DNA from: Escherichia coli
GTDB taxonomy: Bacteria > Pseudomonadota > Gammaproteobacteria > Enterobacterales > Enterobacteriaceae
NCBI RefSeq assembly: GCF_030384885.1
Contig: NZ_CP128613.1
Reading direction: 5' to 3' (one strand)
DNA length: 64,000 nucleotides
Made by a program: the position numbers and the translations under genes
The notes under the pieces: generated by a model
What the model saw: the letters and a program-made list of their open reading frames with translations, nothing else
Told to the model about the DNA's origin: nothing
Databases searched by the model: none
Shown here: piece after piece, positions 41,812 to 42,726 of the stretch
Numbering within the stretch: position 1 is the stretch's first letter
How the letters are laid out: the number at the start of each line of letters is the position of its first letter

Positions 41812-42367
41812 TTTCTGCCTGGCAAATACTGTGAAACGCTGACGCAAATTTTACTTTCCTGCGTATTGTCATCACAGGCCGTACAGACAGTGCGCGGTCT
41901 GTTGGCGGATCTGCCTGGTATTTTGCCGATGAACTGAGGGCGTCCTGCGGGATACGTATCGCCAGGGGCGTGAAACTAATTGATGAGGTGGCGGCATGAT
42001 GCCGGCGGACTAGCATATCTGCCTTTCGCCGCCTGACATGTCCTTTGGGGCCGCTGTCAGTTCAGAGTAAAGGAGAAAAAGATCGATACCGAGGGGGGGC
42101 ACGACGCCCCGGAGACACCCCTGTTTCGTCAGACAGTCTGTACCGCGTACAGCCTGAAACTCCCTAAACCTCAACAAACTGCCACTTCGACGTGAAGGTA
42201 TCGTTCTGGCGCAGCCAAAAAGCACATGCCGGAGACTGTTTTTTAGGTTGTAGAGGGTAGTCATGAGCAAATTAAGTAGTGAAATGAAGGCCCTGACGAA
42301 GAAAGCAGGCGGCAGCTTCAAAACGGTAAATGACCGTATCCATATTACAAAACGGTTCAGTGAGCAT

Positions 42368-42565
42368 TTACGCGAACTGAACATCCAGATCCGGCGGGTA
42401 TGCGCCAAGACTGACTCTGGATTCTTTTCCGTTGAAACGATATTTGAGATACCAGATGCGTGAACCGCCCGGATTGACGAGCAGATACAGACCGTGAGAG
42501 TCGGAGAGTTTTACCGGACGGGAAGAGGTTTTTAACTTGCGGATTTTAGAATCGTTTAAAGACAT
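42368..42565 (-). pseudogene. P4-type integrase N-terminal remnant
   Basis: MSLNDSKIRKLKTSSRPVKLSDSHGLYLLVNPGGSRIWYLKYRFNGKESRVSLGAYP matches arm-binding domain of P4-family integrases; ORF stops after about 65 codons; lies just 3' of asnT. Confidence 0.7.
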
Positions 42566-42726
42566 TTGGGGGTCACTCCAGAATCGAACCAAACTGACCC
42601 CAGATCTGACCACCAAATTATCCCGATGCGGAGAGAAAACCAGATACGCACCGGGGAGGATTTTCACGCTAACTTACTGAACCGTAAACAAATAGAGATG
42701 TACAGATAAGCATGAAAACTTGAATT

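What the first reader, a model, noticed from the sequence alone, without database searches (positions are those of the whole stretch)
42263..42667. Degenerate P4-type integrase stub beside asnT marks a decayed integration site
Immediately 3' of asnT, a minus-strand ORF encodes a typical P4-family integrase N-terminal arm-binding domain (…KLSDSHGLYLLVNPGGSRIWYLKYRFNGKESRVSLGAYP) but terminates after about 65 codons with no catalytic domain. A dyad (ggggtca…tgacccc) lies just upstream of its start. A 66-aa ORF (42263..42463, good RBS) of unknown function sits on the opposite strand. This indicates an ancient island insertion at asnT, of which the hypF/HAD/MFS module may be surviving cargo.
Basis: partly seen in the sequence, partly recalled or inferred. 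Interest (0 to 1): 0.4.

Follow-up and report, generated by a model that had tools for sequence, protein, structure and literature searches.

The report
Dead integrase stubs beside asnT
Next to the E. coli asnT tRNA gene lie the first 57 codons of a P4-type integrase joined head-to-head to the first 46 codons of a second integrase gene, an ordinary, already annotated scar of a small genomic island that can no longer move.

Summary
The window is E. coli chromosome. A P4-type integrase gene starts at ATG 42565 (minus strand), 161 bp after asnT. Only codons 1-57 remain (Pfam Arm-DNA-bind_3, E 1.7e-13).

The "66-aa ORF of unknown function" is codons 1-46 of a second, convergent tyrosine-recombinase gene (Phage_int_SAM_2, E 3.8e-18), followed by read-through. 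A roughly 3-kb deletion between two copies of CCAGCGGGT fused the two genes. Intact relatives show both parents. Fourteen of 5,426 complete E. coli genomes share the joint, and RefSeq annotates both halves as pseudogenes.

The hypF/HAD/MFS genes are island cargo. In relatives the same module is bounded by a 21-bp repeat of the asnT 3' end, and in two genomes it sits at asnV with both integrase genes at full length (both pseudogenes). This window has no such repeat, because a second, 7,155-bp deletion fused yeeJ to the end of hypE.

The dyad lies in the third predicted stem-loop of the integrase 5' leader. That leader is conserved in the high-pathogenicity island and resembles the ICEKp1 leader, where such stem-loops attenuate asn-int transcripts.

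This is ordinary and of low interest.

The parts
42727..42802 (-). asnT, tRNA-Asn(GTT), intact; the integration target
   Evidence: ARAGORN; Rfam tRNA 72.6 bits; annotated tRNA-Asn in the identical RefSeq sequence
42722..42742 (-). attL core: the last 16 nt of asnT plus 5 nt (CCAGTCAGAGGAGCCAAATTC). In relatives this sequence is repeated at the far end of the island; the window has no second copy.
   Evidence: Alignment of the asnT 3' end with the far-end repeats of L001, L002 and L003. Only the four complete tRNA-Asn genes match in the window.
42566..42726 (-). 161-bp integrase 5' leader between asnT and the integrase start codon, predicted to fold into three stem-loops
   Evidence: MFE -51.7 kcal/mol, z -3.53, 0 of 200 shuffles as good. 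Consensus of five loci gives three stem-loops with one compensatory pair. Same 161-bp spacing as ICEKp1, where three leader stem-loops attenuate asn-int transcripts (PMC13023037).
42564..42618 (-). It covers the GGAG ribosome-binding site and the AUG.
   Evidence: the repeat finder I1 and I6; fold z -2.9. It is the best-conserved part of the leader across intact loci, including the high-pathogenicity island. Its arms are mutated in the stub-bearing genome represented by L008.
42395..42565 (-). 5' stub of a P4-type tyrosine integrase gene, codons 1-57 of 420. The ORF runs 8 more codons to a stop at 42368-42370.
   Evidence: Pfam Arm-DNA-bind_3 E 1.7e-13; tblastn 98% identity to residues 1-57 of the intact gene; alignment; PGAP pseudogene 'missing C-terminus' in the identical sequence
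42391..42399 (.). Deletion joint: a single copy of CC(G)GCGGGT. Intact islands have CCAGCGGGT once in each integrase gene, 3,212 bp (L003) or 2,919 bp (L002) apart.
   Evidence: Three-way alignment; repeat positions; BLAST breakpoints 42387-42399
42263..42400 (+). 5' stub of the second, convergent tyrosine-recombinase gene (Phage_int_SAM_2 / Integrase_1 type), codons 1-46 of 294. The ORF then reads through the antisense strand of the first stub to 42463.
   Evidence: Pfam Phage_int_SAM_2 E 3.8e-18; alignment with the intact gene; tblastn; PGAP pseudogene
42078..42207 (+). EFASI RNA (Rfam RF02957), full length, 55 bp upstream of the second integrase start codon
   Evidence: cmscan 90.1 bits against a gathering score of 51.2, model positions 1-133 of 133. 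Found in the same position upstream of the intact gene in L003 and L002.
42024..42262 (+). Retained upstream region of the second integrase gene. The left edge (42023/42024) is a third joint, where 731 bp present in L002 (including a helix-turn-helix pseudogene) are missing.
   Evidence: BLAST blocks; alignment; L002 annotation
37507..41811 (+). Surviving cargo: hypF paralogue (37507-39885), HAD phosphatase (39878-40618) and MFS transporter (40618-41811)
   Evidence: 100% identical to L001, where these genes are annotated; NCBIfam hypF 788 bits
37279..37535 (+). 3' fragment of hypE. The joint of the second deletion (7,155 bp relative to L001) lies at 37279-37283.
   Evidence: BLAST blocks: window 32961-37283 = L001 1-4324, and window 37279-43883 = L001 11480-18084; joint alignment
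33208..37283 (-). 3' fragment of yeeJ (Ig-like adhesin gene), which lost its 5' half in the same 7,155-bp deletion
   Evidence: No complete genome shares this joint.

Best explanation
This is the immobilised scar of a small genomic island that once integrated site-specifically into the 3' end of asnT.

Ancestral layout (shown by relatives): asnT, a 161-bp leader, a P4-type integrase, about 1.4 kb of spacer, a second convergent tyrosine-recombinase gene preceded by an EFASI RNA, a small helix-turn-helix gene, the cargo (MFS, HAD, hypF, hypE, cysteine hydrolase, LysR regulator), and finally a 21-bp repeat of the asnT 3' end.

Three deletions then dismantled it.
1. A roughly 3-kb deletion between two direct copies of CCAGCGGGT removed the 3' 86% of the first integrase gene, the spacer, and the 3' 84% of the second. 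This left the two 5' stubs fused tail to tail.
2. A 731-bp loss removed DNA upstream of the EFASI RNA.
3. In this strain only, a 7,155-bp deletion ran from yeeJ into hypE. It removed the far-end repeat, the regulator, the hydrolase and most of hypE.

Shown: both integrases lack every catalytic residue, and one attachment site is gone. Inferred from this: the remnant cannot excise.

The products are probably non-functional, because the arm-binding domain is itself cut at 52 of 83 profile positions.
For: - Domain matches of both stubs. Only residues 1-57 and 1-46 are present anywhere in the window.
- Intact parents of both halves occur in L003, L002 and L005 in convergent orientation next to a tRNA-Asn gene. 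Their domain architectures are complete.
- The joint lies at a shared 9-mer.
- The same joint is present in 14 complete genomes and annotated as two pseudogenes. An intact pair is present in 395 of 5,426 genomes.
- Far-end 21-bp repeats are present in relatives and absent in the window, because they fall inside the 7,155-bp gap.
- The cargo occurs in only 16 genomes and at two different asn tRNA genes.
- The leader is conserved with the high-pathogenicity island and folds into three stem-loops. This matches the experimentally studied ICEKp1 leader (PMC13023037).
- The only sigma-70-like promoter in 42000-42900 is the asnT promoter.
- The dyad arms are mutated in L008, which carries the same stubs, as expected once the integrase is dead.
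Against: - No transcription data for this locus were available. Read-through from asnT is inferred from Klebsiella ICEKp1 and from the absence of a terminator-like site.
- The figure showing the positions of the ICEKp1 stem-loops is not held, so the identification of the dyad with its third stem-loop rests on position and on my own fold.
- Covariation support for the stem-loops is weak: one compensatory pair in five sequences.
- Shared 9-mers between the two genes are common (12 of them), so the microhomology mechanism is plausible rather than proven.
- The yeeJ-hypE joint is unique to this window. I cannot exclude that it is an assembly error.
- GC content does not mark the island (0.49-0.52, against 0.48-0.51 in the retained yeeJ fragment at 33500-37000).
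Confidence: 0.9

Rival explanations
1. The stubs are not dead. The 65-aa arm-domain fragment, driven by the asnT promoter, and/or the 66-aa chimeric ORF with its native ribosome-binding site are retained as small regulators. They could, for example, bind arm sites of incoming asn-tRNA islands such as the high-pathogenicity island.
For: Both ORFs keep their native start codons and ribosome-binding sites. The joint persists in two sequence versions about 2.6% apart. Read-through transcription is plausible.
Against: The arm-binding domain is itself truncated, at 52 of 83 profile positions. In L008 the stub carries 5 substitutions in 171 bp and the leader 8 in 161 bp, at or above the regional 2.5%. 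The translation-control stem-loop is also decaying there. Only 14 of 5,426 genomes keep the joint. RefSeq treats both as pseudogenes.
Confidence: 0.04
2. The hypF/HAD/MFS genes are native chromosome, and the integrase stubs come from an unrelated island that has otherwise been lost completely.
For: GC content of the module is close to that of the neighbouring chromosome.
Against: The module lies inside the 21-bp repeats in L001 and L008. It travels with the same integrase pair to asnV in L002. It is absent from 5,410 of 5,426 genomes. Genomes with other cargo (L003) or the high-pathogenicity island (L004) have different genes at the same place.
Confidence: 0.03
3. The stub-stub joint is an assembly or reading artefact, and the integrase is really intact.
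For: None for the integrase joint. The yeeJ-hypE joint is unique to this window.
Against: The identical integrase joint occurs in 14 independently finished genomes from different hosts and countries. No other integrase sequence occurs in the window.
Confidence: 0.01

Closest known systems
Integrase and attachment module of the Yersinia/E. coli high-pathogenicity island (and ICEKp1 of Klebsiella)
   Same: - P4-type integrase placed 161 bp after a tRNA-Asn gene and in the same orientation.
- Core repeat made of the tRNA 3' end.
- Conserved 5' leader, including the dyad.
- 71% amino-acid identity over the stub and about 73% nucleotide identity over the gene.
- Leader stem-loops and asn-int co-transcription were shown experimentally for ICEKp1 (PMC13023037).
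   Different: - Different cargo: a hypE/hypF module rather than yersiniabactin genes.
- It carries a second, convergent recombinase gene with an EFASI RNA, which the high-pathogenicity-island locus L004 lacks.
- Here the integrase is reduced to 14% of its length and one attachment site is deleted.
Phage P4 integrase (arm-type tyrosine recombinase integrating into tRNA genes)
   Same: The intact relative has the same three-domain architecture. It is 49.8% identical to P4 Int over 98% of its length.
   Different: This is not a phage and no P4 genes are nearby. The target is tRNA-Asn rather than the P4 target. Only part of the arm-binding domain survives in the window.
Integrase pseudogenes and remnant islands at tRNA genes in E. 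coli, for example the other decay states at asnT
   Same: The process is the same: deletion or IS activity fixes an island in place. Strain BY68 keeps only about 150 bp of the same leader next to an IS1. L002 keeps both integrase genes, but frameshifted or with a stop codon.
   Different: The particular outcome differs: two 5' stubs of convergent recombinase genes fused at a 9-bp microhomology.
EFASI RNA motif (Rfam RF02957)
   Same: Full-length match above the gathering score, lying upstream of an integrase-family gene as the family description states.
   Different: No STAXI motif was found nearby. In the window the downstream integrase gene is truncated. The function of EFASI is unknown in any case.

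Membership tests
P4-type (arm-binding) tyrosine integrase | N-terminal arm-type DNA-binding domain (Pfam PF13356) | tested here: met
   E 1.7e-13 and 51 bits against a cut-off of 27, but only profile positions 1-52 of 83 are present
P4-type (arm-binding) tyrosine integrase | Central core-binding domain (PF22022) and catalytic domain (PF00589) with the active-site tyrosine | tested here: not met
   Both are present in the intact relatives. Both are absent from the window: only residues 1-57 are found by tblastn. The window therefore holds a gene fragment, not a functional member.
P4-type (arm-binding) tyrosine integrase | Sequence relationship to phage P4 Int | tested here: met
   The intact relative, 98% identical to the stub, is 49.8% identical to P4 Int, E 2e-125
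tRNA-Asn-integrated genomic island (high-pathogenicity-island type module) | [quoted passage not shown] | tested here: met
   The ATG is 161 bp after asnT and both are on the minus strand
tRNA-Asn-integrated genomic island (high-pathogenicity-island type module) | Flanking direct repeats of the tRNA 3' end | tested here: not met
   No second copy in the window. A 21-bp repeat is present in L001, L002 and L003. The window's copy falls inside the 7,155-bp deletion.
tRNA-Asn-integrated genomic island (high-pathogenicity-island type module) | Variable presence among strains, and alternative occupancy of the same site | tested here: met
   The cargo is in 16 of 5,426 genomes. The same site holds the high-pathogenicity island or a defence/T6SS-type cargo. 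The same island is found at asnV in L002.
tRNA-Asn-integrated genomic island (high-pathogenicity-island type module) | Ability to excise and integrate | not testable with these tools
   Inferred to be lost: there is no catalytic domain in either recombinase and no far-end attachment site
Phage_int_SAM_2 / Integrase_1 tyrosine recombinase (PF12834 + PF12835) | N-terminal SAM-like domain followed by the Integrase_1 catalytic domain | tested here: not met
   The N-terminal domain matches at E 3.8e-18, but only positions 1-47 of 91. The Integrase_1 domain is present in the intact gene (E 3.5e-61) and absent from the window.
EFASI RNA (RF02957) | Covariance-model score above the gathering threshold over the full model | tested here: met
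   90.1 bits against 51.2, positions 1-133 of 133
EFASI RNA (RF02957) | Genomic context: upstream of an integrase gene and downstream of a STAXI motif | tested here: inconclusive
   It lies upstream of the second integrase gene in the window, L002 and L003. No STAXI motif was found.
ICEKp1-type asn-int leader (attenuating stem-loops) | 161-bp leader with three stem-loops between tRNA-Asn and the integrase gene | tested here: met
   The spacing is 161 bp and three stem-loops are predicted. The description comes from PMC13023037. Exact correspondence of the stem-loops could not be checked because the figure is not held.
ICEKp1-type asn-int leader (attenuating stem-loops) | Co-transcription with the tRNA, and attenuation | not testable with these tools
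   Only indirect evidence: no promoter-like or terminator-like site lies between asnT and the stub

The most novel reading that the evidence does not exclude
The conserved trio found next to asn tRNA genes in at least 395 E. coli genomes may be a functional unit that has not been described. The trio is a P4-type integrase, a convergent Integrase_1-type recombinase, and an EFASI RNA immediately upstream of the latter. In that unit the second recombinase and EFASI would control the directionality or frequency of excision. The full-length EFASI RNA in this remnant could then still act in trans on related islands in the same cell.
Probability: 0.1. Interest if true: 0.4.

Novelty: already known. 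Interest (0 to 1): 0.12.

Why it matters
It matters little beyond annotation. The locus shows step by step how a tRNA-borne island becomes fixed in a chromosome. It resolves a small 'unknown ORF' as a chimera of two pseudogenes. It also flags that yeeJ and the hypE/hypF cargo operon are broken in this strain.

Two things remain open. One is the role of the second recombinase together with the EFASI RNA, a motif whose function is unknown. The other is what the orphan hypE/hypF/hydrolase/phosphatase/transporter module makes. Intact islands in other strains, not this remnant, are the place to study either.

Tried and rejected
1. I searched the window for a partial repeat of the asnT 3' end (16-mer with up to 2 mismatches, 25-mer with up to 3). 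Only the four complete tRNA-Asn genes matched. The missing repeat is explained by the 7,155-bp deletion.

2. I considered that the dyad might be a tRNA-like minihelix, or a relic of another tRNA attachment site. Its loop contains GGTTCGATTC, which resembles the asnT T-loop (D6). I rejected this: ARAGORN and Rfam call nothing there, and similarity to asnT does not extend beyond the 11-mer.

3. I looked for covariation supporting the leader stem-loops. Only one compensatory pair appeared among five sequences, so the structure rests on energy, conservation and the ICEKp1 paper.

4. I looked for a STAXI motif near EFASI. None was found at the gathering score, or at E below 0.01 in the integration module (L003 15000-20420).

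5. I looked for a terminator displaced to the far end of the island in L001. There was no convincing candidate next to the repeat, so I make no claim about the asnT terminator.

6. I looked for genes in the 1.4-kb spacer lost in the deletion. There was no convincing ORF or RNA.

7. I searched the literature for this island, the integrase pair and the two Pfam families. Nothing specific turned up. The ROD21-like asn-tRNA island family (PMC6035254) was read but not tested for membership.

8. I searched the complete genomes for the window's own strain. None shares the yeeJ-hypE joint or the DNA next to serU.

Full report
**Where we are.** The window is E. coli chromosome from the asnV-asnU-asnW ... 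asnT-mtfA-serU region. ARAGORN finds tRNA-Asn genes at 22763, 25172, 26996 and 42727, and tRNA-Ser(CGA) at 43794. The stretch 41800-42900 is 100% identical to strain 2013C-4282 and to one other finished genome.

**The observation.**
- It matches Pfam Arm-DNA-bind_3 at E 1.7e-13, but only profile positions 1-52 of 83.
- The true start is the ATG at 42565, 161 bp after the asnT 3' end. The 34 upstream 'codons' belong to the leader.
- tblastn with an intact relative finds residues 1-57 only (98% identity). Nothing else from that gene occurs in the 64 kb.
- The 66-aa plus-strand ORF is real, but its first 46 residues are the N-terminus of a second integrase-family gene (Pfam Phage_int_SAM_2, E 3.8e-18; alignment). 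The last 20 residues are read-through into the antisense strand of the first stub.

**What made it.** BLAST against 5,426 complete E. coli genomes splits the region at 42387-42399.
- The right part continues, in many genomes, into a full-length 420-aa integrase next to a tRNA-Asn gene.
- The left part continues, in others, into a full-length 294-aa 'integrase domain-containing protein'.
- In strain FDAARGOS_1337 (L003) both are intact and convergent. The second gene is at 16664-17548 (+), the P4-type gene at 18916-20178 (-), and tRNA-Asn at 20340. Both have full domain sets.
- A three-way alignment shows the window switching from one parent to the other inside CCAGCGGGT. That sequence occurs once in each gene, 3,212 bp apart in L003 and 2,919 bp apart in L002.
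- This is a simple deletion between short direct repeats. Such 9-mers are not rare between these genes (12 are shared), so the mechanism is plausible rather than proven.
- Fourteen complete genomes share the joint, and PGAP annotates both halves as pseudogenes 'missing C-terminus'.
- Nine of them (H6-H14) differ from the window by about 2.6% over this 1.1-kb stretch. One of these (L008) was fetched and compared base by base. It keeps the ancestral A in the joint, and its dyad arms carry two non-compensating changes.

**Is hypF/HAD/MFS cargo? Yes.**
- In L001 and L008 the block LysR regulator, cysteine hydrolase, hypE, hypF, HAD, MFS, stubs lies between asnT and a 21-bp repeat of the asnT 3' end, CCAGTCAGAGGAGCCAAATTC.
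- In two genomes the same block sits at asnV, with both integrase genes full-length but inactivated, and with its own repeat.
- The block is present in only 16 of 5,426 genomes.
- Other strains have different cargo behind the same integrase pair (L003), or the high-pathogenicity island behind a 73%-identical integrase (L004).

**Why there is no repeat in the window.** Compared with L001, the window lacks 7,155 bp (L001 4325-11479).
- This fuses the 3' part of yeeJ to the last 257 bp of hypE at 37279-37283.
- The lost DNA included the far-end repeat, the regulator, the hydrolase and most of hypE.
- No finished genome shares this joint.
- A third, smaller difference lies at 42023/42024, where 731 bp present in L002 are missing.

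**The dyad.** The leader between asnT and the integrase start is the best-conserved non-coding stretch across the intact loci, including the high-pathogenicity island.
- It folds into three stem-loops (MFE -51.7 kcal/mol, z -3.5; consensus fold).
- A 2026 study of ICEKp1 reports the same layout: the integrase gene lies 161 bp after tRNA-asn, is transcribed from the tRNA promoter, and has three leader stem-loops that lower the amount of full-length asn-int transcript (PMC13023037).
- Consistent with this, the only promoter-like site in 42000-42900 is the one before asnT, and no terminator-like site follows it.
- Covariation support is thin.

**A missed feature.** Rfam finds a full-length EFASI RNA at 42078-42207 (+), with 90.1 bits against a threshold of 51.2.
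- It lies 55 bp upstream of the second integrase start codon.
- It occupies the same position upstream of the intact gene in L002 and L003.
- The family name means 'Enterobacteriaceae, Frequently Around STAXI and Integrases', and its function is unknown (Rfam text quoted in PMC12370729).
- No STAXI motif was found.

**Comparison and verdict.**
- The intact relative is 49.8% identical to phage P4 Int, and the stub is 71% identical to the high-pathogenicity-island integrase. 'P4-type integrase stub at a decayed asnT integration site' is therefore correct.
- It is a fragment of a family member, not a functional member.
- tRNA-Asn islands and integrase pseudogenes are textbook, and the identical sequence is already annotated in RefSeq. 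The finding is ordinary.
- The two points with some residual interest lie outside the remnant: the role of the second recombinase plus EFASI, and the product of the orphan hypE/hypF module.

Noticed in passing
window 42078-42207 (+): A full-length EFASI RNA (Rfam RF02957, 90.1 bits) lies just upstream of the second integrase stub. The same arrangement is seen in the intact islands L003 and L002. The motif's function is unknown and no STAXI partner was found.
   Followed up: partly
window 33208-37535: A 7,155-bp deletion relative to strain 2013C-4282 fuses the 3' half of the yeeJ adhesin gene to the last 257 bp of hypE. It removes the island's far-end repeat. No complete E. coli genome shares this joint.
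   Followed up: yes
window 37507-41811; L001 9004-16012: The cargo module is an orphan hypE/hypF pair with an isochorismatase-type cysteine hydrolase, a HAD phosphatase, an MFS transporter and a divergent LysR regulator. It sits away from any hydrogenase genes and is present in only 16 of 5,426 genomes. Its product or function is unknown, and it is broken in this window.
   Followed up: partly
window 43884-56000: Directly after serU the window carries low-GC DNA that strain 2013C-4282 lacks. It is about 79% covered, at 95% identity, by islands in other strains annotated with SIR2-family, TIR-domain, DUF6387 and RepL proteins. This looks like a defence-type island at serU.
   Followed up: partly
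window 42581-42591 versus 42742-42752: The loop of the third leader stem-loop contains GAATCGAACCA, one mismatch away from the T-loop segment of asnT itself. The similarity does not extend further, and no tRNA-like call was made there.
   Followed up: yes
L003 14855-15039: The intact island in FDAARGOS_1337 carries C4 antisense RNA, c4-a1b1 and isrK matches upstream of its small helix-turn-helix gene. It also has an isrN match near its far end. This part of the module is absent from the window.
   Followed up: no
L007 4000-4152 (strain BY68): This is another decay state of the same island family at asnT. Only about 150 bp of the integrase leader remain, ending at an IS1, and yeeJ is missing.
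   Followed up: partly
window 9240-9363 (-) and 11661-11735 (+): Rfam finds a histidine operon leader and the sRNA STnc240. These are ordinary chromosomal features unrelated to the finding.
   Followed up: no
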